DNA from: Lentisphaerota bacterium | Lineage (GTDB): Bacteria > Verrucomicrobiota > Lentisphaeria > Oligosphaerales > PUNB01 | Length of the DNA stretch: 28,707 nucleotides | Direction of reading: 5' to 3' | NCBI GenBank assembly: GCA_003552565.1 | Contig: PUNB01000262.1 | Span: 1-28,707 of the forward strand | In this document: piece after piece, positions 8,177 through 28,707 of the stretch | Position numbering within the stretch: position 1 is the first letter of the stretch | How the letters are laid out: each line of letters opens with the position of its first letter | Made by a program: the position numbers and the translations under genes | Notes under the pieces: model-generated | What the model was told of the DNA's origin: nothing | Databases searched by the model: none | What the model saw: only the letters and a program-made list of their open reading frames with translations

Positions 8177-9841
8177 TTGATTTTTCATAGTCTTTTTCGG
8201 CTGTATAGTATGGCTATGCGTTTCTGGCGTAAAATAGACAAAAAGGATTCTTCCGGCGATGGCAAGAAAAAAGCCGGCCGCACTCGCTGGCGCCGCCGTC
8301 TGGTGCTTTGCTGCCTGGGATTGCTGCTGACGATATATCTGCTCGGGCTGCTGCTGAATCTGGGCTCCGGCAATATCAGCGGTACGAATGTGGCCAGCCC
8401 GGTTATGTCTGTAAACCCCGAGAATCTACGGCTGCTGTTCGATATCACCGGTGTTGACGAGGAGGGGAGCAGGGTCACTGAACAGGAGATATTCGACACT
8501 TTGCTGGAGATGATTGAGGAGGCCGAAGAACAGATTATTCTGGATATGTTTCTAGTAAATCGTTTTCGGGGTCCGGAGGATGATGAGTTTTACCGGGATG
8601 TCACCCAGGAACTGGTGGAAGCTTTGGTCGAGACGAAACAGCGGAACCCGGAGATTTTTATTCTTTTCATTACCGATCCTATCAACAGTCTTTACCAAAC
8701 CTCCTGTCCGCCGGATCTGCTGCCTTTGAAAGAGGCGGGGGGACATGTGATACTGACAGATCTTCGACAGCTGCCCGACAGCAATTTTGTTTACTCTCCT
8801 TTCTATCGGGTGATCAGTTATTTCAACTTTGTGCTGGCGCCGGTCATGGATTTATCTTTCCTGCCGAATCCATTCGAGGAGCACGGGGAGAGTTTTTCGC
8901 CGCGGCAGTTGTCACGTTTACTGAATTTCAAAGCTAATCATCGCAAAGTGGCGGCGGTGCGGCGGGCTGACGGCAGCTGGCGCGCCCTGATCAGCTCCGG
9001 CAATCCCCACAGCGCCAGCAGCGCCCACGGCAATGTGGCGGTGGAACTGGCGCGGGAAGGACCGATACAGGAAATTGTGTTCAGTGAGTATAACCTGGCC
9101 AGGGCTTCGCTTTTGCGGAGACCGGAGCTGTATTTCGGTCCTGACGCCGCCATCAGGCTGGTGCGACAGCTGGAAGGAAAAATGCGGGATTGGCCTGGAG
9201 AAACTCCCGCTTATGAAGGGGAGGATAAAGTCCTGGTGCAGTATTTATCCGAAGAAAAAGTTGCTCGGCGATTGGTCCGTCTGCTGATCTCGGCTGAGGA
9301 AGGGGATAAGATTCAAATAATGATGTTTTACCTTTCCGATCCGGGGGTGATCTCGGAACTCAAAGAGGCCGTTCACCGCGGCGCTTCCGTCCGTCTCCTT
9401 CTGGACCCCAATAAAGATGCTTTTGGAAGAGAGAAGCATGGTGTTCCGAATCGAGTCACCGCGGCCCGGCTGTATAATTGGGCGACAGAGAAAGAAGAGC
9501 GCGATTTACATTTGCGCTGGTTTGACACGCATGGAGAACAGGCTCACTTTAAGGCTCTGAGAAAATTCAATGAAGACAAGGGAACCGAAAATCTGATGGT
9601 TGGTTCCTCCAATTTTACTATTCGTAATTTGCGCGATCAAAATCTTGAATCTGTTCTTTATTTGCGGAATGCGCGTCAAAAGGGAGAACAATTCGGAGAG
9701 GTGTTTGATCGGCTTTGGGATAACCAGGGGGAGCTGCATTACACGGTTGGTTATGAAAAATACCAGGCGGAAGGGATGCGTTTATCCTTTAAGGGGGCAA
9801 TGAAATTTATCGGCAACACCACCGGCCTTTGCACGTACTGA
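8177..9841 (+). CDS. phospholipase D-superfamily membrane protein (cardiolipin-synthase-like, degenerate HKD motifs)
   Basis: N-terminal Lys/Arg-rich segment, then TM helix 'LVLCCLGLLLTIYLLGLLLNL'. Two PLD-like motifs: 'NHRKVAAV...SSGNPHSASS' and 'HFKALRKF...GSSNFTIRNL'. An alternative start is the ATG at 8210. Confidence 0.6.
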   Translation: MIFHSLFRLYSMAMRFWRKIDKKDSSGDGKKKAGRTRWRRRLVLCCLGLLLTIYLLGLLLNLGSGNISGTNVASPVMSVNPENLRLLFDITGVDEEGSRVTEQEIFDTLLEMIEEAEEQIILDMFLVNRFRGPEDDEFYRDVTQELVEALVETKQRNPEIFILFITDPINSLYQTSCPPDLLPLKEAGGHVILTDLRQLPDSNFVYSPFYRVISYFNFVLAPVMDLSFLPNPFEEHGESFSPRQLSRLLNFKANHRKVAAVRRADGSWRALISSGNPHSASSAHGNVAVELAREGPIQEIVFSEYNLARASLLRRPELYFGPDAAIRLVRQLEGKMRDWPGETPAYEGEDKVLVQYLSEEKVARRLVRLLISAEEGDKIQIMMFYLSDPGVISELKEAVHRGASVRLLLDPNKDAFGREKHGVPNRVTAARLYNWATEKEERDLHLRWFDTHGEQAHFKALRKFNEDKGTENLMVGSSNFTIRNLRDQNLESVLYLRNARQKGEQFGEVFDRLWDNQGELHYTVGYEKYQAEGMRLSFKGAMKFIGNTTGLCTY

Positions 9842-9861
9842 TGTCTGCCGCGGGAAAACAG

Positions 9862-10719
9862 ATGAACACAATAATCACTCCGCGAAACAAAGCAACTAAT
9901 CGAGCAGTTCCGGCTTTCATTGCCGGTCTGTCACTGCTGACTATGTTGGCGGTTTCCCTGATTCCGGGAGCCAGGAATGTTGTAAGCGGCGGGGTTCGTC
10001 CGATTTTGAGCGGCTCCCGGCAGGGAGTCAATTGGGCAATGGAAGGAGTGCGCGGCATGATTCCGCTGTCGGCCATGGAACGACGGCGGCTGGAATCTTT
10101 ACAGGAGGAAGTATATCGTCTGCGCACTGAGCTTACGGTGGCGGAACAGGTTAAGGAGGAAAACAAACAATTGCGTCAACAATTGGAATTGGCGCCGATG
10201 GCCGGCTGGGAAAGATTGACGGCCTTGGTGATCGCCCGCGACCCGATTTCCTGGAATCGGCGTTTCCGGATCAATCGCGGCGCCAAACATGGGGTGATTG
10301 AGGGGAACCTGGTGCTGCGCGGTGATCAGGCGGTGGGAAGGGTGATTGAAGCGGGAGAGACAAGCTCCATGGTGGCCGTGTTGTCGAACCCGGAGTGCAG
10401 ATTGAGCGTCCGCCTGCGGGAACATGAAGTGACTGGAGTAATGATGGGGCTGGATCCCGCGGAAAACAGGTCCACACGCAGACCTATGGCCCGAATTGAT
10501 TATCTGCCGGTGGATGTGGATTACGAAAGCGGCGACATTGTTGAAACCTCCGGCCTCAGCGGTTTGGCGCCGGGCGGCATTGAGGTGGGACGGCTGCTGG
10601 CGGATGATAGGCGGCGGCAGAGTGAACCGGAAGAGCTTCCTTTCGCCCGTCTGAATATGGAACCGGTGGCGGAACTGAGTAACCTGAGAGTTGTCACAGT
10701 GCTGTCAGGCGGAGAATGA
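9862..10719 (+). CDS. mreC: rod-shape-determining protein MreC
   Basis: TM helix, coiled coil ('LQEEVYRLRTELTVAEQVKEENKQLRQQL'), then MreC beta domains ('VIARDPISWNRRFRINRGAKHGVIEGNLVL..GDQAVGRV', 'GDIVETSGLSGLAPGGIEVGRL'). I preferred the start at the internal ATG (MNTIITP) to avoid overlap with the upstream gene. The ORF-track start 9829 is possible. Confidence 0.75.
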   Translation: MNTIITPRNKATNRAVPAFIAGLSLLTMLAVSLIPGARNVVSGGVRPILSGSRQGVNWAMEGVRGMIPLSAMERRRLESLQEEVYRLRTELTVAEQVKEENKQLRQQLELAPMAGWERLTALVIARDPISWNRRFRINRGAKHGVIEGNLVLRGDQAVGRVIEAGETSSMVAVLSNPECRLSVRLREHEVTGVMMGLDPAENRSTRRPMARIDYLPVDVDYESGDIVETSGLSGLAPGGIEVGRLLADDRRRQSEPEELPFARLNMEPVAELSNLRVVTVLSGGE

Positions 10720-12917: not shown

Positions 12918-13274
12918 ATGAGCACTGGTTATCATGAAGCAGGTTTAAGTCAGAAAACTCAGAATATCCATCGGGCCATCGCCAGTTTGCAGGAAGAACT
13001 GGAAGCGGTGGACTGGTATAATCAGCGCGCTGATGTGACTGAGGACGCGGAATTGAAAGCGGTTCTTGAACACAACCGCAATGAAGAGATTGAGCACGCC
13101 GGTATGCTGCTTGAATATCTCCGTCGCAATATGAGCGAGTTTGACGAGCAATTGTCGACCTACCTGTTTTCCACTCTGCCGATCACCCAGATCGAAGAGG
13201 CTGAAGAGGGCGGGGAAAATGACGCTCCCGGCGACGTCTCCAGCTCTGGCTTGGGCATTGGGAAAATGGATTAG
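12918..13274 (+). CDS. encapsulated ferritin-like protein (EncFtn/Flp) cargo with C-terminal encapsulin targeting peptide
   Basis: 'EELEAVDWYNQRADVTEDAELKAVLEHNRNEEIEHAGMLLEYLRR' is the EncFtn di-iron motif region. The Gly-rich linker ends in 'SSGLGIGKMD', resembling the family-1 cargo-loading peptide (GSLGIGxL). Confidence 0.8.
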   Translation: MSTGYHEAGLSQKTQNIHRAIASLQEELEAVDWYNQRADVTEDAELKAVLEHNRNEEIEHAGMLLEYLRRNMSEFDEQLSTYLFSTLPITQIEEAEEGGENDAPGDVSSSGLGIGKMD

Positions 13275-13346
13275 CTCAGTTCTTGATGCCTTGGTAGTGA
13301 ACTGATTTATTGCTTTGTATTATCAAAAAACATAAGGAAATGAAAG

Positions 13347-14153
13347 ATGGATATTTTAAAAAGATCACTGGCTCCAATCACTGACAGCGCCTGGAATGAG
13401 ATTGATCAGGAAGCGGCGCGCGTTTTGAGAGGCAATCTGGCTTTTCGCGGCCTGGTGGACTTCGTCGGACCCGAGGGCTGGGAGAAGGCGGCGGTCAATC
13501 TGGGCACCATGAAAGAAGGCGGCAAGCAGCTGGTGAAAGGAGTTAACTGGGGATTACGTCAGGTTCAGCCTTTGACCGAAATCAGAGTGCCCTTTTCTCT
13601 TGATATATGGGAGTTGGACAACTTGGAACGCGGCGCCCAGGCACCCGATCTGGACGCGGTCACGCAGGCGGCTCAACAAGGAGCGGTCTTTGAGGAAACG
13701 GCTGTTCTCAACGGTTTTTCCGAGGCTCAGATCACCGGCATCGGTCAGGCGGCCGGCAAACCGATCGGCATGTCCAAGAACCCAGCCGATTGCCTCGCCG
13801 CTTTTGAAGAAGGCATCGTGGCCTTGCAGAAGCAGGGAATCAACGGTCCATACCAGCTGGTTCTGGGAACGGAAGCCTATCAAATGATAATGGCCGGTGA
13901 TGATAAAGGTTATCCTCTGCACAAGCGCGTACAGGAATTGACCGGAACCGACATCAAATGGAGTCCGGCAGTGATGCAGGCGGGGATTATTTTAAGCTGT
14001 CGCGGCGGTGATTATGTCTTCACCTGCGGCCAGGATTTTTCCATCGGCTATCATTCACATTCAACCAAGGCGGTTAATCTGTTTTTAACCGAGTCTTTTA
14101 CTTTCCAGGTTCTGGAACCCGCGGCGGCGGTCAGTATATCCTGGAAAAAGTGA
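13347..14153 (+). CDS. family-1 encapsulin nanocompartment shell protein (linocin M18-like, HK97 fold)
   Basis: Collinear similarity to the T. maritima encapsulin: 'MDILKRSLAPITDSAWNEID', 'WGLRQVQPLTEIRVPFSLDIWELDNLERG', 'GPYQLVLGTEAYQ', 'GYPLHKRVQELTG', 'GQDFSIGYHSHSTKAVNLFLTESFTFQVLEP'. Confidence 0.9.
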   Translation: MDILKRSLAPITDSAWNEIDQEAARVLRGNLAFRGLVDFVGPEGWEKAAVNLGTMKEGGKQLVKGVNWGLRQVQPLTEIRVPFSLDIWELDNLERGAQAPDLDAVTQAAQQGAVFEETAVLNGFSEAQITGIGQAAGKPIGMSKNPADCLAAFEEGIVALQKQGINGPYQLVLGTEAYQMIMAGDDKGYPLHKRVQELTGTDIKWSPAVMQAGIILSCRGGDYVFTCGQDFSIGYHSHSTKAVNLFLTESFTFQVLEPAAAVSISWKK

Positions 14154-22937: not shown

Positions 22938-25493
22938 TCAACGTCGAAAATCGGGAACTCCCGGAAGCGGCTGATCACGCACGGGCTGACCGGACGGATC
23001 CACCAAGTGTGCAGTTACAAAAATTAGCAGGTTCCGTTTTTCCGACTGCTTGCCCCTGCTCCTGAAAAGCCGTCCCAGAAGCGGTATGTCACCAAGTATC
23101 GGAACCTTGTCCTCAAACTCGAACAATTCTTCACCGATCATGCCGCCAAGGACCACTGTTTCACTATCGTAAACCAGCACTTGCGCATCAACTCTGCGAC
23201 GTTCAATTATCGGCATGGACGCTCGATATGATACACCGGTTCCTGGGTCCACAGTATCCAATTCTGTATCGTAACCAAGGAATTCAACTACCTGCGGGGT
23301 TAATTGCAAGTTGATAGTATAATTGTCCGGTTCAACTTCCGGTGTCACCTCCAGAATAACCCCCATCTCCTCTGCGTCTCCGAAAACCGGGGTTGAAGGT
23401 ATTACACTCTGTATCTGACCATCATCGTCAAACGTAAGTTCAGGTTCATTCCAATCTATCGGGAAATAACGTTCAGTAACAATTCTCATCGCTGCCGGCT
23501 CACCAGAAATAGTTGTAACTTTGGGGGCGGAAAGTATATCCGCTTTGTCGGATCGCTCCAAAGCGTTCAGTACCACGTCCAGTTCAAGATTTCCCAAGAC
23601 GGCAGCCGCCGAGAGGAAGTCTCCAGTGGCGCCTGTCGGCAAGGCATCTGAAACCGTACGAACTCCCGTGGTTAAATCGGACGCGTCAATATCCAGCCGC
23701 CTTGACCCGGAGCTGCTTTCGTAAGCTGTATGCCCCTGAGCGATAGCCCACTGCATTCCCATCTCCTGCAAAGCGTTCTGTGATACTTCAACAAACTTGG
23801 CTTCAATCATCACCTGCGTCGGAGTCGCCGCCAGTTCAGGAATCAGCTCTTCAATCCGCTGAATATTTTCAGCAGTATTATAAACCACAAGCCTTCCCGT
23901 GCGAGTATCGTAACGTATGCTTGAGCCTTCAGGAAATGACACTCCAAGGTCCCGGAAATAAGCCTTCACGTCATCCGGTGACACTTCCTCTCGTTCGGCA
24001 ATATCGGTATCCATCCCCCAAGGATCGTCATCATCTCTATCGTCAGTCCGCTCCCGCCTGAAAATACCCGGAGTGATAGAGAAAAATCGGGTGTACATCT
24101 CGCCAGCCGGCAATTCACGATCAGAGATGATCACCGCCCTCGGATCGATTACATAATGCAATCCGGCGGACATGGCAACAAACCGGATCACGTCCCCGAG
24201 CGGGACATTTTCCATATTCAATGTCAAAGCACCTATGTCCTGCACTTCCTCCGGCTCGTCAAAGTCGTCGAAATCATCAAAGTCATCCCTGTCGGGACGT
24301 CGTTCCAGTCGTGGAGCTGCATCAGGGTCATCGGCCAAATTCAACACGAAATTAACTCCTTCATCGTCAGGATCGAGTTCCCGACTCTGCCTTTGCAGAT
24401 AACCAACCACCTGATGAATGGTCGCTTCTTCAAATTCTACCCGCGGAATAATTATTTCACGCAGTTTCTGCCGAATGGCGGCATCCGGCGGGGCCTCTCT
24501 CTCCACCGGCCGGCCAGGCTCTACCATTTCCTCTTCCCTCTCCAGCGGCTTCACCGGCTGCGACCAAGTCCAAGTGGTCTCCGCCAGCATCTCTTCGCGA
24601 GTGGCTATCCGCCTTTCCTCGCCTTTATCATCGACCTTTTCCGCGATGCGACGCAGATAGCGCACCGCCACTAATGAATAGGGGTCTCGATCCAGAACCT
24701 CCTCAAATTGCTCCTTCGCCTCCATATAACGGCCGTTTTCATAAAGAATCTTCGCCTGTTCTTTCAGCACATCAATGTCGAACTCACGTTCCTCTTTCTC
24801 GGGGTCAACATCCTCCGGCCTTGTACGTGTCTGAAATTCAATATCCCGTCGCTGTTCTTCAAGCCTTTCCGCCATTCTATTGAACTCATCGGCTCTTCCC
24901 GGCAAGGTTTCGGCGGCCTCGCTCAGAACGTCCTGAGCATCATCCCACCTAGCCACATCCGCAGCCTCGCGAGCCTCTCTTTTTATGGTTTGCACCCACT
25001 GATTGTAAGCATCCCCGACGGAACGCTCGGTTGCATCAATGCGATTTCTCACATCCTCATCGACGCGGCTGACATTCTGTAATATCTCCTTGGCTTCTTG
25101 ATACTTATCAATCGCTTCCTGAAACTCGTTATCACGCAGATTCCGGTTAGCCCGTCTTTGCAAATCCTTGGCTCTTTCGAGCTGCTCCTGACGACGCACC
25201 TCCTCTTCACGGGAGAGGCGTTCATGCTCAGGCGCGTCTTCATCGACTTCCACGTCGTCAGGCTCATCGACCTCCACTTCAGGATCTTCAGCGACCTCAT
25301 GCTCTTCCGGTTCTTCAGCTTCCGGAGCCGCTTCAACCTCGGCGGGTTCAGGAGCAGCGTCCCGATCAAAGTCCCAGATGTCATTGTTATCATCACCTGA
25401 TACCACACCTGGACTGAATACCAGTGCCAGCAAAAAACAAAACCCAGCCGCAACCGCTAATTCACTACGTTCAATTAAAGCATTTTTCCGCAT
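22938..25493 (-). CDS. PilQ/GspD-family secretin with long acidic coiled-coil N-terminal region
   Basis: C-terminal secretin domain 'VLVYDSETVVLGGMIGE...VPILGDIPLLGRLFRS...RNLLIFVTAHLV'. Signal peptide 'MRKNALIERSELAVAAGFCFLLALVFSPGVVSG'. GGAGG RBS lies 7 nt before the ATG at 25493 (the ORF-track start 25526 is less likely). Confidence 0.85.
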   Translation of the reverse strand: MRKNALIERSELAVAAGFCFLLALVFSPGVVSGDDNNDIWDFDRDAAPEPAEVEAAPEAEEPEEHEVAEDPEVEVDEPDDVEVDEDAPEHERLSREEEVRRQEQLERAKDLQRRANRNLRDNEFQEAIDKYQEAKEILQNVSRVDEDVRNRIDATERSVGDAYNQWVQTIKREAREAADVARWDDAQDVLSEAAETLPGRADEFNRMAERLEEQRRDIEFQTRTRPEDVDPEKEEREFDIDVLKEQAKILYENGRYMEAKEQFEEVLDRDPYSLVAVRYLRRIAEKVDDKGEERRIATREEMLAETTWTWSQPVKPLEREEEMVEPGRPVEREAPPDAAIRQKLREIIIPRVEFEEATIHQVVGYLQRQSRELDPDDEGVNFVLNLADDPDAAPRLERRPDRDDFDDFDDFDEPEEVQDIGALTLNMENVPLGDVIRFVAMSAGLHYVIDPRAVIISDRELPAGEMYTRFFSITPGIFRRERTDDRDDDDPWGMDTDIAEREEVSPDDVKAYFRDLGVSFPEGSSIRYDTRTGRLVVYNTAENIQRIEELIPELAATPTQVMIEAKFVEVSQNALQEMGMQWAIAQGHTAYESSSGSRRLDIDASDLTTGVRTVSDALPTGATGDFLSAAAVLGNLELDVVLNALERSDKADILSAPKVTTISGEPAAMRIVTERYFPIDWNEPELTFDDDGQIQSVIPSTPVFGDAEEMGVILEVTPEVEPDNYTINLQLTPQVVEFLGYDTELDTVDPGTGVSYRASMPIIERRRVDAQVLVYDSETVVLGGMIGEELFEFEDKVPILGDIPLLGRLFRSRGKQSEKRNLLIFVTAHLVDPSGQPVRDQPLPGVPDFRR

Positions 25494-25636
25494 TCTTTCG
25501 CCTCCGCAAATTAGTTTTATCTTCATTCGTTTCTGTTCAATATTATAGGCACATTTTTCGCAAAGCCGTCAATATAACGGCATTTCCTGGCTTGTCCAGT
25601 TCAAGCCAACATTTCTTTTTACTCCATTGTCAGCTA

Positions 25637-26656
25637 TCACCAGTCAGCATCCAGCATTTCTTCTTCTTCAAATTCTTCCGGCAGCTCCAGCTGGTGTTCC
25701 GGCAGGGGCTGTTCTTCGCGCGGTCTTCTGCGACCAATTTCAATGATTCTTTCCGGATCCTCTTCCGGCCGCAGATGCACTGTTTCCGCGTCCCGCACCT
25801 CCACCTCGAAACTCCGCCGGGTTTCGTCAACATCCTCAAAATCAAGTGTATCGTTGGTGCTTACAGTGAAAGTTTTCTGAAACCTGTGATCCTGGGGGTC
25901 GGTCAACATCAGCCGCACACGCCAGGGTCCTACCTGAGCTTCTTCTCCGCGTACCAGCGTAACCGTTTCTCCATCCGGGCCGGTCAATTCCAATTCCGAC
26001 ACATCCACCGTTTCTTCCGCGCGAATACGCGGATTGTAGCGGGTTTCCTCTTTGTGTTCAAGACCGGTGATTTCAAAATCTTCACCATCCACATTAATGG
26101 TTTCGCCGACCCGCCTGAATCTGGTTCTTCGCCTGCCGTCAGCTCCACGCACGGAAAGCTGCAGATCCCACTCTTCCACGGGACGATCATCGAAAACAGT
26201 AACCCGTCGAAGTTCAGCCCCGAAGGTCTGCCTGCGGGCGCGGTGGATAAACATACGCCGCCTCAGAGGCGCCAAGTCATCATCCGGGTCTTCCCAAACT
26301 TCTTCCTGATCCGTATCGCAATATGGACATACTTCGGCATCCACCGGCAGCCAATGTTCACAATCTCGGTTAATGCACCACGCTTTAGCCGCCGGCCTGG
26401 AAGCGGTCGCATCTTCCGGCATATCCGGTTCCGCCCAGTCGACACTGGGTGCTTCCACGTAACGGTCCGCCTCGAAATCGGCGCTGTCCAATGCTGTAAG
26501 TTCTTCACCAACCGCTCTTTCCGGCAGTGACTCGCCCATGGCCACTTCCTCGTGCAGCTCTATCGACTGCGACAATAGCATAAACCCCCATACACACACG
26601 AAAATGATAAAAACCGACAGAATAATTTTTTCCCAGTGCTGTGTAATAAAATTCAT
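25637..26656 (-). CDS. hypothetical membrane-anchored protein with Cys4 zinc-ribbon and highly acidic C-terminal region (secretin-operon member)
   Basis: N-terminal TM 'IILSVFIIFVCVWGFMLL', then 'CINRDCEHWLPVDAEVCPYCDT', then Glu/Asp/Arg-rich sequence. The antisense 368-aa ORF was rejected (F/R/H-rich, mirror of the acidic codons). Confidence 0.5.
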   Translation of the reverse strand: MNFITQHWEKIILSVFIIFVCVWGFMLLSQSIELHEEVAMGESLPERAVGEELTALDSADFEADRYVEAPSVDWAEPDMPEDATASRPAAKAWCINRDCEHWLPVDAEVCPYCDTDQEEVWEDPDDDLAPLRRRMFIHRARRQTFGAELRRVTVFDDRPVEEWDLQLSVRGADGRRRTRFRRVGETINVDGEDFEITGLEHKEETRYNPRIRAEETVDVSELELTGPDGETVTLVRGEEAQVGPWRVRLMLTDPQDHRFQKTFTVSTNDTLDFEDVDETRRSFEVEVRDAETVHLRPEEDPERIIEIGRRRPREEQPLPEHQLELPEEFEEEEMLDADW

Positions 26657-26675
26657 TTCCTAATATCTCCCGGAT

Positions 26676-27554
26676 TTACTCCACATCAAACTCTATAAAA
26701 TGAATCGGCATCTCAAAGCTCACCGAATCATCGAAACGAACCAAACGTCGTTCCCTAACGGCCTCCTCTTCTGAATCAACTTCCCGATCTCCGCGCCGAT
26801 CATCTCGGGAACGGCTTCGGTCGCTTCGCCGATCACTGTCCCGCTGGATTTCCAGTTCCTCTCCGCGCCATTGAAAATAAGGAACATTGAAATAAAAATC
26901 CTGTTCAGCGTGAAGCTGATTGATCAAACTACGTATATTCCCCAACGAGCCCCGCAGTTCCAGATTAATTCGCATAACTCGATAACCGTCTTTATGAATT
27001 TCCCTTATCCCCGCTGGTCGATGCAAGGATCTCACCTCTTCCACACCGCTTCCCGCAACAAGCTCAGCCACCCTTTCCACCACCCGCAGCTGGCGCATCA
27101 AAGCAGGCGCCTCACGTGACGCCTCCGGCAAACCTGGTGCCTGGATAATCTCTTGAAAAGAAAACCCGCGGGCATCGTCATGAACTTCCACACCCGCCTG
27201 TTCAAATTCGGATCTAAGACTTCTAGCCACCGAGTCCAGCTGATTCTTAGCTTCGACCGCACTAACGGATTCGACTTCCAAAACAGAACGCTCCGCCAGA
27301 GCCTGTTTTAATTTTGACAGTTCATTTTCGAGCTGTTCAAGGTTTTCTCTGGCCTGTCGCAAATTCTCGTCAGTAACCCCAGGGCGTCGCTCGGCGACCC
27401 GGGAAAAATAGCTCTGATGGTCGGAATACTCCTCAGCCAGCTCTTCAACCTCGCTGCCAATCCGGCCGGAGACTGTCCACAAAGCCACAGCCAGTATCAC
27501 ACAAACCAGCAAAAATACAACGAAGCCTATATTTCTCTTTAATATATTCAGCAT
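26676..27554 (-). CDS. PilO-like type IV pilus assembly membrane protein (TM + coiled coil + PilO-like fold), Arg/Asp-rich insert
   Basis: TM 'IGFVVFLLVCVILAVALW', then coiled coil 'ENLRQARENLEQLENELSKLKQALAER'. 'MRINLELRGSLGNIRSLINQLHAEQDFYFNV' resembles the PilO C-domain. Low-complexity 'RDSDRRSDRSRSRDDRRGDRE'. Confidence 0.5.
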   Translation of the reverse strand: MLNILKRNIGFVVFLLVCVILAVALWTVSGRIGSEVEELAEEYSDHQSYFSRVAERRPGVTDENLRQARENLEQLENELSKLKQALAERSVLEVESVSAVEAKNQLDSVARSLRSEFEQAGVEVHDDARGFSFQEIIQAPGLPEASREAPALMRQLRVVERVAELVAGSGVEEVRSLHRPAGIREIHKDGYRVMRINLELRGSLGNIRSLINQLHAEQDFYFNVPYFQWRGEELEIQRDSDRRSDRSRSRDDRRGDREVDSEEEAVRERRLVRFDDSVSFEMPIHFIEFDVE

Positions 27555-27779
27555 AGTCCTAGCTCACTCTAAGTTTTTTATGGCTTTTTCTTAAAACAAA
27601 TGTTTATTAATAAAAGATTCTTTTCTGAAATTTCATCGGTAACAGCTTGGTTTCAGGTTTCTGGTGTCAGGGTATTAGTTAAATCCCAAATCTAAAATCA
27701 CAAATCTCATTGATGGAATATGGTTCGGGACAAAGTTGAACCCAGAGACACGCGAAACACCTTTTCGGATACCCTCAGG

Positions 27780-28707
27780 CTAGTATTCCAAGTCAATCGG
27801 CTCTTCGAGTCTTGCCCGGATAGTGAACGTTCTCAGATTAAACACCTGATCCGACACTTCGTATTCATCAAAATCGACCCGATCCTCAACGAAAACAGGC
27901 AATCTTCTCAACCTTGACAAAAGTACCTGTTCCGGACCGCGGCCGTTATCCGGAACCTCTTCAGGCGCCTCAATATCCTCGAGCTCATCGGCCGCCTCTT
28001 CGAGTTCTTCCCGCGCTAACTCTTCAAGCTCTTCATCCCCAACGTCTTGTCCGTCAATTCTAACTCCCGGCGGAAGTGAAAGACTGTGGCCGCGAACTGC
28101 TATGCCGGTGATTCTGCCTCTCGGGCCGCTTTCTTCCAGTTCAATCTCATCAGGATCTCTTTCTTCATCCTCGCGCCGCGGTTCATCGTCACGATCACGC
28201 CTCCTGCTGAAAGGACTGGCGGGAGCGTCGCGCTCGGGCCGGCGTTCCTCTTCTTCCTCTCTCAAATCCTCAAAAACCGGCCTGAATTCAGTGAACCACA
28301 ACCTTCCGGGTATTTCCGCTTCCACGGAATTAACCACCCGCACCCAATCTTCGCGTCTTCTCAGCAGGCGGTTCAATCGCTGGTACTGATCCTCGACATT
28401 GCTGATCTCGCTCTCCACCCCGCTCAATTCGCTCTCTTTCTCTTCCAGCTCTTGGCGCTGTTCCCGGAATTGTTCCACCACCGGCTCATAAACCTGAGCC
28501 ATGTACATATTGCTGAACAAAGAGAAGGTCAACAGCAAAAGTACGCACAAAGCCGCCGCTCCCAGCCATGTCTTCTTCTGCTCAAAAGCCACTAGTCGAC
28601 GTATGCGCCGCGGCAGGAGATTAACCTCAACCGGACAGGCCCCTCGATAACGCAGCGCCAAACCAACCGCCTGACTGAACCCATGGGCCTCGTTTTCCAA
28701 TCTTTCA
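27780..28707 (-). CDS. PilN-like pilus assembly protein, possibly fused to an upstream PilM-like domain. The 5' end is outside the window.
   Basis: The ORF is open to the window end. 'VNLLPRRIRRLVAFEQKKTWLGAAALCVLLLLTF' is a PilN N-terminus (INLLP motif + TM), then a coiled coil. The preceding 'GFSQAVGLALRY' resembles a PilM C-terminus. Long acidic/Arg tail. Confidence 0.55.
   Translation of the reverse strand, partial: ERLENEAHGFSQAVGLALRYRGACPVEVNLLPRRIRRLVAFEQKKTWLGAAALCVLLLLTFSLFSNMYMAQVYEPVVEQFREQRQELEEKESELSGVESEISNVEDQYQRLNRLLRRREDWVRVVNSVEAEIPGRLWFTEFRPVFEDLREEEEERRPERDAPASPFSRRRDRDDEPRREDEERDPDEIELEESGPRGRITGIAVRGHSLSLPPGVRIDGQDVGDEELEELAREELEEAADELEDIEAPEEVPDNGRGPEQVLLSRLRRLPVFVEDRVDFDEYEVSDQVFNLRTFTIRARLEEPIDLEY

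What the first reader, a model, noticed from the sequence alone, without database searches (positions are those of the whole stretch)
22938..28700. Extreme acidic / Arg-Asp low-complexity inserts in all four proteins of the secretin operon
Seen directly in the translations. Secretin: 'DDFDDFDDFDEPEEV', 'ERTDDRDDDDPWGMDTD', and a long 'EPAEVEAAPEAEEPEEHEVAEDPEVEVDEPDDVEVDED' run after the signal peptide. 339-aa protein: 'EEDPERIIEIGRRRPREEQPLPEHQLELPEEFEEEEMLDADW'. PilO-like: 'RDSDRRSDRSRSRDDRRGDREVDSEEE'. PilN-like: 'EEEEERRPERDAPASPFSRRRDRDDEPRREDEERDPDEIELEE' and 'EELEELAREELEEAADELEDIEAPEE'. Such co-ordinated charge-rich disordered segments across every subunit of one machine are unusual for T4P/T2SS components. 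They suggest cation (Ca2+/Mg2+/metal) binding, electrostatic interaction with a highly charged substrate, or phase-separating/'entropic bristle' linkers spanning a wide periplasm.
Basis: seen in the sequence. Interest (0 to 1): 0.55.

Follow-up and report, generated by a model that had tools for sequence, protein, structure and literature searches.

The report
Hyper-acidic pilus machine, likely soda-lake bacterium
The four genes encode the periplasmic scaffold and outer-membrane pore of an Akkermansia-type pilus machine from a Lentisphaerota bacterium; its floppy loops, present across the whole family, and its folded periplasmic parts have become extremely acidic and lysine-free, most likely as an adaptation to salty, alkaline brine rather than a new function.

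Summary
Highly charged segments cover 13-32% of the four operon proteins, against 0.4% of the 21 other ORFs on the contig.

The operon is the Amuc_1098-1101-type type IV pilus-like machine of PVC bacteria. It encodes a truncated PilM-PilN fusion, an Amuc_1100/PilO-like protein, a previously unnamed PilP/GspC-like protein, and a TPR-secretin.

Every "insert" sits at a site that is variable and low-complexity in all relatives, so the loops are inherited. Only their D/E/R, Lys-free composition is lineage-specific.

The shift also affects conserved core columns: the secretin ranks 1st of 146 family representatives for acidity. In a 57-60% identical relative, the shift is confined to the periplasmic half of the PilM-PilN fusion. 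That relative is a MAG from a salt-saturated soda lake.

The best reading is adaptation of periplasm-exposed protein to a haloalkaline environment, seen most strongly in unconstrained disordered loops. Cation binding, charge-block phase separation and extra-long spacers find no support.

By-products: a family-wide acidic "D-x-F/W" motif loop in the secretin N0 domain, and loss of Ca-binding TSP3 repeats in this lineage. Interest is moderate to low.

The parts
22938..25526 (-). Secretin (862 aa; database start at M12 gives 851 aa). Amuc_1098-like: signal peptide, acidic tail, TPR-like helical domain, N0, N1, secretin domain.
   Evidence: Pfam Secretin 4.6e-36, Secretin_N, TPR. NCBIfam Amuc_1098_fam 1e-123, below cutoff. 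AF2 model.
25224..25394 (-). Acidic N-terminal run of the mature secretin (residues 45-101; D+E about 0.4-0.5, K+R 0.01-0.05 depending on the exact bounds).
   Evidence: pLDDT < 50 for residues 37-99. NCPR -0.44. 75 of 146 family members have a tail of at least 40 aa here, with median D+E 0.25.
24228..24338 (-). Site 2: disordered loop between strands beta2 and beta3 of the N0 domain (residues 397-433). It contains DDFDDFDDF (24243-24287).
   Evidence: pLDDT < 50 for residues 402-430, flanked by E392-396 and E434-442. 116 of 147 family members carry an insert of at least 25 aa here, with an enriched D-x-F/W motif. Weak 9-nt periodicity.
23973..24068 (-). Site 3: acidic N0-N1 linker (residues 487-518; RRERTDDRDDDDPWGMDTD...).
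   Evidence: pLDDT < 50 at residues 497-511. It is G/D-rich and variable in all relatives.
25637..26656 (-). 339-aa PilP/GspC-like protein: N-terminal TM helix, CxxC...CxxC zinc-ribbon-like motif (26318-26377), all-beta HR-like domain (25730-26257), acidic tail (25640-25729).
26676..27554 (-). 292-aa Amuc_1100-family / PilO-like protein (N-terminal TM anchor). An Arg/Asp/Ser insert lies before the last beta-strand (residues 236-268, nt 26751-26849).
   Evidence: NCBIfam Amuc_1100_fam 5.4e-17, below cutoff. The 57%-identical orthologue in L005 carries Pfam PF28028 Amuc_1100. The insert site is variable (26-101 aa) in all 13 family members aligned.
27780..28707 (-). C-terminal 308 codons of a PilM-PilN fusion (Amuc_1101 family), cut by the contig end: TM helix (28497-28565), periplasmic PilN-like domain with insert 1 (28113-28271) and insert 2 (27933-28049).
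   Evidence: No in-frame stop before the contig end. NCBIfam Amuc_1101_fam 7e-22, profile positions 333-531 of 608. The full-length orthologue in L005 has PilM_2 at 2e-39. Insert 1 is present, at 16-62 aa, in all 16 aligned.

Best explanation
The operon encodes the trans-envelope scaffold and pore of the PVC-type (Akkermansia Amuc_1098-1101-like) type IV pilus-like machine. Its parts are a PilM-PilN fusion, a PilO-like Amuc_1100 homologue, a PilP/GspC-like connector and a TPR-secretin.

In this protein family every subunit carries intrinsically disordered, low-complexity loops, linkers or tails at fixed topological positions, all on the periplasmic side. Length and sequence are free to vary there, apart from short aromatic motifs. 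The window's 'inserts' are those inherited loops.

What is special to this lineage is a compartment-specific change in composition. Everything exposed to the periplasm, folded cores included, has gained Asp/Glu, lost almost all Lys, and uses Arg where a positive charge is kept. The unconstrained loops show the change most strongly.

The most likely cause (inferred) is life in saline, alkaline brine with a 'salt-out' cytoplasm. Excess hydrated carboxylates keep periplasm-exposed protein soluble and flexible at high ionic strength. Arg keeps its charge at pH around 10, where Lys would not. On this reading the loops act as hydrated flexible spacers and motif carriers, not as a new charged functional module.

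Shown: family identity, positional conservation of the loops, predicted disorder, the core and loop shift, its restriction to the periplasmic half in a relative, and the habitat of that relative. Inferred: that habitat drove the shift, and that the window's own organism lives in such a habitat.
For: Identity of the machine.

Inserts sit at family-wide variable sites. These are secretin sites 1-3 in 146 representatives and PilN insert 1, the p292 insert and the p339 tail in 13-16 operons. In relatives these sites are rich in S/T/N/Q/A/P/G/K; only the window and L005 are D/E/R with K = 0.

Predicted disorder: pLDDT < 50 exactly at the secretin inserts and the p339 tail, and all seven segments fall on the disordered side of the Uversky plot.

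Core columns are shifted too. D+E is 0.206 vs 0.144+-0.013 (secretin), 0.193 vs 0.111+-0.020 (PilN), 0.173 vs 0.132+-0.011 (p292) and 0.230 vs 0.133+-0.022 (p339). K is 0.013-0.028 vs 0.07-0.10. The secretin ranks 1 of 146 in both core and variable columns.

Internal control in the L005 PilM-PilN fusion. The cytoplasmic part has D+E 0.121 vs 0.126+-0.008. The periplasmic part has D+E 0.228 vs 0.127+-0.026, R 0.138 vs 0.060 and K 0.030 vs 0.091.

Habitat. L005 is WGS PUNA01, 'Lentisphaerae bacterium B1Sed10_208R2', from Bitter-1, a salt-saturated (400 g/L) soda lake (PMC6146748 Additional file 4 and site description).

Precedent. Periplasmic proteins are the acidic exception in the salt-out halophile Chromohalobacter salexigens (PMC3817357). 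Externally exposed proteins of alkaliphiles have fewer basic and more acidic residues (PMC7143216).

The window's periplasmic MreC also shows the K-to-R swap: K 0.007-0.017 vs 0.03-0.108 and R 0.12-0.13 vs 0.015-0.076 in four solved MreCs. Cytoplasmic ORFs of the window are ordinary.

The composition is held at protein level, with mixed synonymous codons and no DNA repeats.
Against: The habitat of the window's own organism is unknown. The link rests on a relative that is only 57-60% identical, and the origin of a second relative (SRR490150) could not be traced.

The two other envelope proteins on the contig, MreC and a CsgG-like lipoprotein, are Lys-poor but not hyper-acidic (D+E 0.12). Strong acidification could therefore be specific to the machine; n = 2 is too small to decide.

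The MreC comparison is with phylogenetically distant orthologues and is confounded by GC content.

The literature on alkaliphiles reports fewer basic residues overall, whereas Arg is increased here.

The secretin loops are acidic family-wide (site 2: D+E 24%, K+R 2.4%). For that protein, acidity has a function or cause unrelated to habitat.
Confidence: 0.6

Rival explanations
1. Machine-specific electrostatic function. The acidic loops line the periplasmic cage of the pilus machine in order to bind cations, or to repel or guide a charged fibre or substrate. The coordinated charge is selected for what the machine does, not for where the cell lives.
For: Within the contig, hyper-acidity is confined to the four machine proteins; MreC and the lipoprotein are not hyper-acidic. 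The secretin N0 loop and N-terminal tail are acidic across the whole family (D+E 24% and K+R 2.4% at site 2; N-terminal tails have median D+E 0.25). They carry a conserved D-x-F/W motif: 204 observed vs 104.8+-8.9 in shuffles. Orthologues of p339 carry TSP3 Ca-binding repeats, so divalent cations matter to this machine elsewhere.
Against: Outside the secretin, relatives have neutral or basic loops at the same sites, so acidity is not a requirement of the machine. There are no EF-hand, TSP3 or RTX-type motifs in the window proteins, and the TSP3 repeats are missing in this lineage. Some segments are near-neutral Arg/Asp polyampholytes (p292 insert NCPR -0.06), which makes them poor cation binders. 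The shift also affects folded cores and includes a K-to-R swap shared with MreC. From general knowledge, free Ca2+ and Mg2+ are very scarce in soda brines.
Confidence: 0.2
2. Neutral drift or mutational bias. Unconstrained disordered loops wander in composition, for example by expansion of GAN/CGN codons, and this lineage happened to drift towards D/E/R.
For: Loop 'flavour' differs by genome and is shared among subunits within a genome. L003 has poly-Gly in the PilN, p292 and secretin loops; L002 and L010 are K/S/T-rich; L015 and L016 are A/P-rich. Charge order is no different from random.
Against: There are no DNA-level repeats except a weak 9-nt DDF periodicity, and synonymous codons are mixed. 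The flavour and some motifs (DAPASPF, PDNGRGPEQ) persist between relatives only 57-60% identical. Conserved core columns shift by 3.5-5 SD. The shift is restricted to the periplasmic half of one polypeptide. There are 0 Lys in about 300 loop residues, although Lys codons are used elsewhere on the contig.
Confidence: 0.1
3. Blocky-charge phase separation, or extra-long 'entropic bristle' linkers that span an unusually wide periplasm.
For: High fraction of charged residues (0.49-0.69) and predicted disorder.
Against: Kappa is 0.12-0.32 and within shuffle expectation (|z| < 2), so there are no charge blocks. The window's loops are within the range seen in relatives: p292 41 aa vs 26-101, PilN insert 1 55 aa vs 16-62, secretin site 2 37 aa vs a median of 39.
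Confidence: 0.05
4. Global proteome bias: all proteins of the organism are like this, as in a salt-in halophile.
For: Most cytoplasmic ORFs are mildly acidic (pI 5.0-5.6).
Against: The 21 other ORFs have D+E of 0.03-0.17 (one at 0.21) and 0.4% coverage by charged segments. The cytoplasmic PilM part in the relative is normal.
Confidence: 0.03

Closest known systems
Akkermansia muciniphila Amuc_1098-Amuc_1102 type IV pilus-like gene cluster (PilQ-type secretin Amuc_1098, Amuc_1100, PilM-like Amuc_1101)
   Same: Three of the four proteins hit the NCBIfam models for Amuc_1098, Amuc_1100 and Amuc_1101. The relative L005 also has Pfam Amuc_1100 and Amuc_1102 genes in the same order. Amuc_1098 is a 907-aa outer-membrane secretin with an N-terminal TPR region followed by a secretin domain (PMC4960237), which is the architecture found here.
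   Different: All scores are below the curated family cutoffs: 414 vs 750, 62 vs 180, and 78 vs 650 for the fragment. These are therefore distant Lentisphaerota relatives, not equivalogs. The third gene (p339) matches no named family. The composition is hyper-acidic and Lys-poor. My recollection that Amuc_1100 has an Ala/Pro-rich segment at the site of the p292 insert was not verified here.
Classical PilMNOPQ alignment subcomplex and secretin of type IVa pili, and GspC-GspD of type II secretion
   Different: PilM and PilN are fused. The connector is anchored by a TM helix and carries a zinc-ribbon-like motif; relatives also carry TSP3 repeats, and it is not a lipoprotein. The secretin has a TPR-like domain where AMIN domains would be. 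Long disordered loops occur inside N0 and inside the PilN/PilO-like cores. A classical PilMNOPQ locus from Verrucomicrobiota (L004) has D+E of only 0.09-0.11.
Acidic periplasmic or external proteins of salt-out halophiles and alkaliphiles (e.g. Chromohalobacter periplasmic proteins, including its highly acidic beta-lactamase; external cytochromes of alkaliphiles)
   Same: A compartment-specific excess of Asp/Glu and depletion of Lys in proteins exposed to the medium, alongside an ordinary cytoplasmic proteome. Literature: PMC3817357, PMC4356365 (title and abstract), PMC7143216.
   Different: Here the shift is documented for a whole multi-subunit envelope machine and is most extreme in its disordered loops. 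Arg is enriched rather than reduced. The habitat is known only for a relative.

Membership tests
Bacterial secretin (Pfam PF00263) | C-terminal secretin domain scoring above the Pfam gathering threshold | tested here: met
   124.4 bits vs cutoff 27.5, residues 655-843. Secretin_N scores 28.9 vs 28.2. The AF2 model shows a beta-rich C-terminal domain with pLDDT about 90.
Amuc_1098 family type IV pilus outer membrane protein (NCBIfam NF042912) | Whole-protein score above the curated equivalog cutoff | tested here: not met
   414.1 bits vs cutoff 750, although E = 1e-123 over profile positions 20-490 of 805. It is a distant relative, not an equivalog.
Amuc_1098 family type IV pilus outer membrane protein (NCBIfam NF042912) | N-terminal TPR-like region followed by N0, N1 and a secretin domain, encoded next to Amuc_1100- and Amuc_1101-like genes | tested here: met
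   TPR hits and helical domain at residues 102-321. Operon order is PilMN, Amuc_1100-like, p339, secretin. The same order is found in 13 other loci.
Amuc_1100 family pilus-like protein (NCBIfam NF038287 / Pfam PF28028) | Match to the family model above cutoff | tested here: not met
   62.2 bits vs cutoff 180 (E = 5.4e-17, residues 15-185). The 57%-identical orthologue in L005 has a precomputed PF28028 hit. A profile of 13 family members reaches the PDB Amuc_1100 chains 6lad and 6kny only at E 0.5-0.6.
Amuc_1101 family PilM-like protein (NCBIfam NF045709) | N-terminal PilM (actin-like ATPase fold) fused to a TM helix and a periplasmic PilN-like domain | tested here: inconclusive
   Only the C-terminal 308 residues lie on the contig. 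They align to profile positions 333-531 of 608 at E = 7e-22, 78 bits vs cutoff 650. The full-length orthologue in L005 has PilM_2 at 135.9 bits.
PilP / GspC homology-region (HR) connector proteins | Small beta-sandwich HR fold that binds the secretin N0 domain, encoded between the PilO-like gene and the secretin | tested here: met
Calcium-binding repeat proteins (bacterial TSP3 repeats, EF-hand-like DxDxDG) | Recognisable DxDxDGxxDxxE-type repeats | tested here: not met
   No TSP3_bac hit in window p339 at E <= 0.1. Orthologues have them: L020 at 6.8e-8 and L015 at 2.3e-5. The window and L005 have gaps at both repeats in the alignment.
Halo(alkali)philic adaptation of medium-exposed proteins | Excess Asp/Glu and depleted Lys relative to orthologues, restricted to the extracytoplasmic compartment | tested here: met
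   Core columns are shifted 3.5-5 SD in D+E, with K at 0.013-0.028 vs 0.07-0.10. The cytoplasmic PilM part of the L005 fusion is normal and the periplasmic part is shifted. Cytoplasmic ORFs of the window are ordinary.
Halo(alkali)philic adaptation of medium-exposed proteins | The organism lives at high salinity and/or high pH | tested here: inconclusive
   The relative L005 (PUNA01) is a MAG from salt-saturated soda lake Bitter-1. The source of the window's own contig could not be retrieved.

The most novel reading that the evidence does not exclude
The disordered loops may form a functional mesh rather than acting as passive spacers. The secretin N0 loop carries a family-wide acidic D-x-F/W repeat. 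The PilN-like loop carries a conserved aromatic motif flanked by basic residues (SPF[SG]RRR, S[IL]FGR[KR]R). These could be interacting short linear motifs that build a dynamic, FG-nucleoporin-like or electrostatic seal or gate inside the periplasmic cage of the PVC pilus machine. In the soda-lake lineage this mesh would have been re-tuned to Arg/Asp/Glu chemistry that still works at saturating salt and pH 10. The same lineage lacks the TSP3 Ca-binding repeats that p339 carries in relatives.
Probability: 0.1. Interest if true: 0.7.

Novelty: new member of a known kind. Interest (0 to 1): 0.33.

Why it matters
The Amuc_1098-1102 cluster is best known for Amuc_1100, the Akkermansia surface protein studied for its effects on the host. 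The machine it belongs to is barely characterised.

This case shows three things about that machine:
- It is widespread in Lentisphaerota with a conserved five-gene logic.
- Its unnamed third gene is a PilP/GspC-type connector.
- All subunits carry positionally fixed disordered loops whose chemistry tracks lineage.

The hyper-acidic, Lys-free version is a natural example of how a whole envelope-spanning machine, and above all its disordered parts, is re-coded. The relative's habitat suggests saturating soda brine as the cause. It does not point to a new type of system.

Tried and rejected
1. Exact look-ups of the window's secretin and p339 to find the source record and more of the genome found nothing on record. 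A whole-proteome test was therefore impossible.
2. The word-indexed protein search was swamped by low-complexity words and returned only 3-6 hits per query. The exhaustive HMMER search of representatives gave the family instead.
3. The genome-contig scan returned only 3 loci. The metagenome scan used a generic secretin motif, so only about 13 of 80 loci held full operons.
4. Literature search for GCA_003551605, SRR490150 and GCA_046766335 found nothing in main texts. PUNA was then found in a supplement.
5. PDB sequence searches with p292 and p339 gave nothing significant.
7. The 225-nt gap between the PilMN gene and p292 was compared with the gap in L005. It is not conserved, and the promoter/terminator scan was at chance level.
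8. DNA slippage as the origin of the inserts was rejected.
9. Blocky charge patterning was rejected.

Full report
**1. What is there**

The window is a complete 28,707-bp NCBI contig. Its last 5.8 kb carries four co-directional genes on the minus strand:
- a secretin, 22938-25526, 862 aa;
- a 339-aa protein, 25637-26656;
- a 292-aa protein, 26676-27554;
- an ORF at 27780-28707 that has no stop upstream and runs off the contig end.

**2. Is the composition unusual for this contig?**

Yes. D+E is 0.19-0.25 in the four proteins, against 0.03-0.17 in the other ORFs; the one exception is a 118-aa encapsulated ferritin at 0.21. Segments with at least 60% charged residues cover 23, 13, 17 and 32% of the four proteins, against 0.4% of 6030 residues in the 21 other ORFs. 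Four of four operon proteins have such a segment, against 1 of 21 others (Fisher p = 4e-4).

The inserts hold 42 Arg and no Lys. They use mixed synonymous codons and show no DNA-level repeats beyond a weak 9-nt periodicity under DDFDDFDDF.

**3. Identity of the machine**

- The secretin has Pfam Secretin, Secretin_N and TPR hits. Its best NCBIfam match is the Amuc_1098 family (E = 1e-123, below the equivalog cutoff).
- The 292-aa protein matches the Amuc_1100 family (5e-17).
- The truncated ORF matches positions 333-531 of 608 of the PilM-like Amuc_1101 family.
- A relative that is 57-60% identical (L005, WGS PUNA01000193) has the full order: Amuc_1102-like, PilM-PilN fusion (640 aa, PilM_2 at 2e-39), Amuc_1100 (PF28028), the p339 homologue, then the secretin.
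- Thirteen further metagenomic or MAG loci, mostly Lentisphaerota-like, share the order PilMN, p292-like, p339-like, secretin(s).
- The 339-aa protein had no family. Its AF2 model has a TM helix, a low-confidence region containing a CxxC...CxxC motif, a confident all-beta domain (134-309) and a disordered tail.

The operon is therefore a PilM-N / PilO-like / PilP-like / PilQ-like set of the Akkermansia Amuc_1098-1101 type. The published description of Amuc_1098 as a TPR-plus-secretin outer-membrane PilQ fits (PMC4960237).

**4. The 'inserts' are inherited loops**

An exhaustive HMMER search gave 34,731 secretin hits; the best 150 representatives form the Amuc_1098-like family. I aligned 146 of them, plus locus-derived secretins.

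*Secretin site 2.*
- The window's site 2 (residues 397-433) is a loop of at least 25 aa in 116 of 147 members, with a median of 39 aa.
- The pooled composition is A/G/P 45%, D+E 24% and K+R 2.4%.
- The motif [DE][DEGPA]?[FW] is enriched: 204 observed vs 104.8+-8.9 in shuffles, and 0 of 1000 shuffles reached the observed count. Asp sits two residues before 111 of 249 Phe/Trp.
- Examples are ADDPF repeats, GDDFGDDF, WGDDDDAWGDDDD and GGFDDGGFGGD. The window's DDFDDFDDF is the local form.

*Other secretin sites.*
- A sub-branch with an 11-aa site-2 loop carries an [DE][DE]FF..TF motif at site 3 instead.
- Half the family has an acidic N-terminal tail of at least 40 aa (median D+E 0.25, K+R 0.02).
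- The AF2 model (40-sequence MSA, mean pLDDT 74.7) gives pLDDT < 50 at residues 37-99, 402-430 and 497-511. It places site 2 between strands beta2 and beta3 of N0.

*The other three proteins.*
- PilN insert 1 (16-62 aa), the insert before the last strand of the Amuc_1100-like protein (26-101 aa) and the p339 tail are present in essentially all relatives.
- In relatives they are rich in S/T/N/Q/A/P/G/K, with D+E of 0.05-0.2. Only the window and L005 are D/E/R with no Lys.
- PilN insert 2 is shared with only some relatives (L005, L003, L016).
- Loop lengths in the window are within the family range.

**5. The shift is not confined to the loops**

In alignment columns occupied by at least 80% of sequences, the window's proteins are 3.5-5 SD more acidic than orthologues:

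| Protein | Window D+E | Orthologues D+E |
|---|---|---|
| Secretin | 0.206 | 0.144+-0.013 |
| PilN-like | 0.193 | 0.111+-0.020 |
| p292 | 0.173 | 0.132+-0.011 |
| p339 | 0.230 | 0.133+-0.022 |

Lys is 0.013-0.028 against 0.07-0.10, and Arg is raised. Among 146 secretin representatives the window ranks first for D+E in both core and variable columns.

The PilM-PilN fusion of L005 gives an internal control. Its cytoplasmic PilM part is normal (D+E 0.121 vs 0.126+-0.008). Its periplasmic part is shifted (D+E 0.228 vs 0.127+-0.026, R 0.138 vs 0.060, K 0.030 vs 0.091). The change is therefore specific to the compartment.

**6. Physical character of the segments**

FCR is 0.49-0.69 and NCPR is -0.06 to -0.44. 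Kappa is 0.12-0.32, indistinguishable from shuffles. All segments lie on the disordered side of the charge-hydropathy plot. They are well-mixed strong polyelectrolytes or polyampholytes, expected to be expanded and highly hydrated. They have no charge blocks and no canonical Ca-binding motifs.

Orthologues of p339 carry bacterial TSP3 Ca-binding repeats. These are missing in the window and in L005.

**7. Cause**

PUNA00000000 is 'Lentisphaerae bacterium B1Sed10_208R2', a MAG from the sediment of Bitter-1, a salt-saturated (400 g/L) soda lake (PMC6146748 Additional file 4 and methods). Acidic periplasmic proteins alongside an ordinary cytoplasmic proteome are documented for salt-out halophiles (PMC3817357). 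Externally exposed proteins of alkaliphiles have fewer basic and more acidic residues (PMC7143216).

From general chemistry, Arg keeps its charge at pH 10 while Lys largely does not. That would explain loops that are Lys-free but rich in Arg. Also from general knowledge, soda brines hold very little free Ca2+. That would fit the loss of the TSP3 repeats and argues against a Ca/Mg-binding role.

The window's periplasmic MreC also shows the K-to-R swap and a mild rise in acidity relative to four solved MreCs. Neither MreC nor a CsgG-like lipoprotein is hyper-acidic. With only two controls, I cannot exclude that the strongest acidification is specific to the machine. The habitat of the window's own organism is unknown.

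**8. Verdict**

The best explanation (confidence 0.6) is that family-wide disordered periplasmic loops, and the folded periplasmic cores with them, were re-coded to Asp/Glu/Arg in a probably haloalkaliphilic Lentisphaerota lineage.

Rivals:

| Rival explanation | Confidence |
|---|---|
| Machine-specific electrostatic or cation role | 0.2 |
| Neutral drift | 0.1 |
| Phase separation or wide-periplasm spacers | 0.05 |
| Global proteome bias | 0.03 |

This is a new, compositionally extreme member of a known kind of machine. The most interesting residue is the conserved acidic-aromatic motif loop in the secretin N0 domain, whose function is unknown.

Noticed in passing
window 24228-24338 (secretin residues 397-433); family representatives P0007-P0155: The disordered loop between beta2 and beta3 of the secretin N0 domain carries a family-wide acidic-aromatic motif (D-x-F/W; for example DDPF, DDF, GGFDD, WGDDDD). 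It is often repeated 2-6 times and is about twofold enriched over composition-matched shuffles. As far as I could find, it has not been described.
   Followed up: partly
window 28113-28271 (PilN-like insert 1); L002, L005, L010, L011, L020, L041 orthologues: Inside the otherwise unconserved PilN-like insert there is a recurring aromatic motif followed by basic residues: SPFSRRR, SPFGRPS, SIFGRKR, SLFGRRR, PIFGKQR. 'DAPASPF' and 'PDNGRGPEQ' are conserved between the window and L005. These may be short linear motifs.
   Followed up: no
window 25637-26656 and orthologues (L002 5855-7186, L015 7108-8238, L020 8343-9698, etc.): The unnamed third gene of the operon is a PilP/GspC-like connector with a TM anchor and a CxxC...CxxC zinc-ribbon-like motif. 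In most relatives it also has two bacterial TSP3 (Ca-binding) repeats; these are missing in the window and in its soda-lake relative.
   Followed up: partly
L002, L009-L014, L018-L026, L028, L031, L036, L041, L043: Most relatives encode two, and occasionally three, tandem Amuc_1098-like secretins. One has a short site-2 loop and a long site-3 linker; the other has the reverse. The window has a single secretin.
   Followed up: no
L003 6651-12406: In one Lentisphaerales MAG the homologous loops of three subunits all contain runs of 7-9 Gly. Loop 'flavour' is therefore shared among subunits within a genome in other lineages too.
   Followed up: partly
window 12918-14153 (+): An encapsulated-ferritin gene (EncFtn-like, 1e-37) lies directly upstream of a 268-aa ORF that looks like a family-1 encapsulin shell protein. 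The pair would form an iron-storage nanocompartment operon. The shell ORF was judged by eye only.
   Followed up: no
window 27555-27779: An AT-rich 225-nt gap between the PilM-PilN gene and the Amuc_1100-like gene holds small tandem repeats (27649-27707). It is not conserved with the equivalent gap in L005, which holds a 63-aa Arg-rich ORF call. It may contain an internal promoter.
   Followed up: partly
window 9829-10719 (+): The periplasmic MreC is strongly Lys-depleted and Arg-enriched relative to solved MreC structures (K 0.01-0.02, R 0.12-0.13) without being hyper-acidic.
   Followed up: partly
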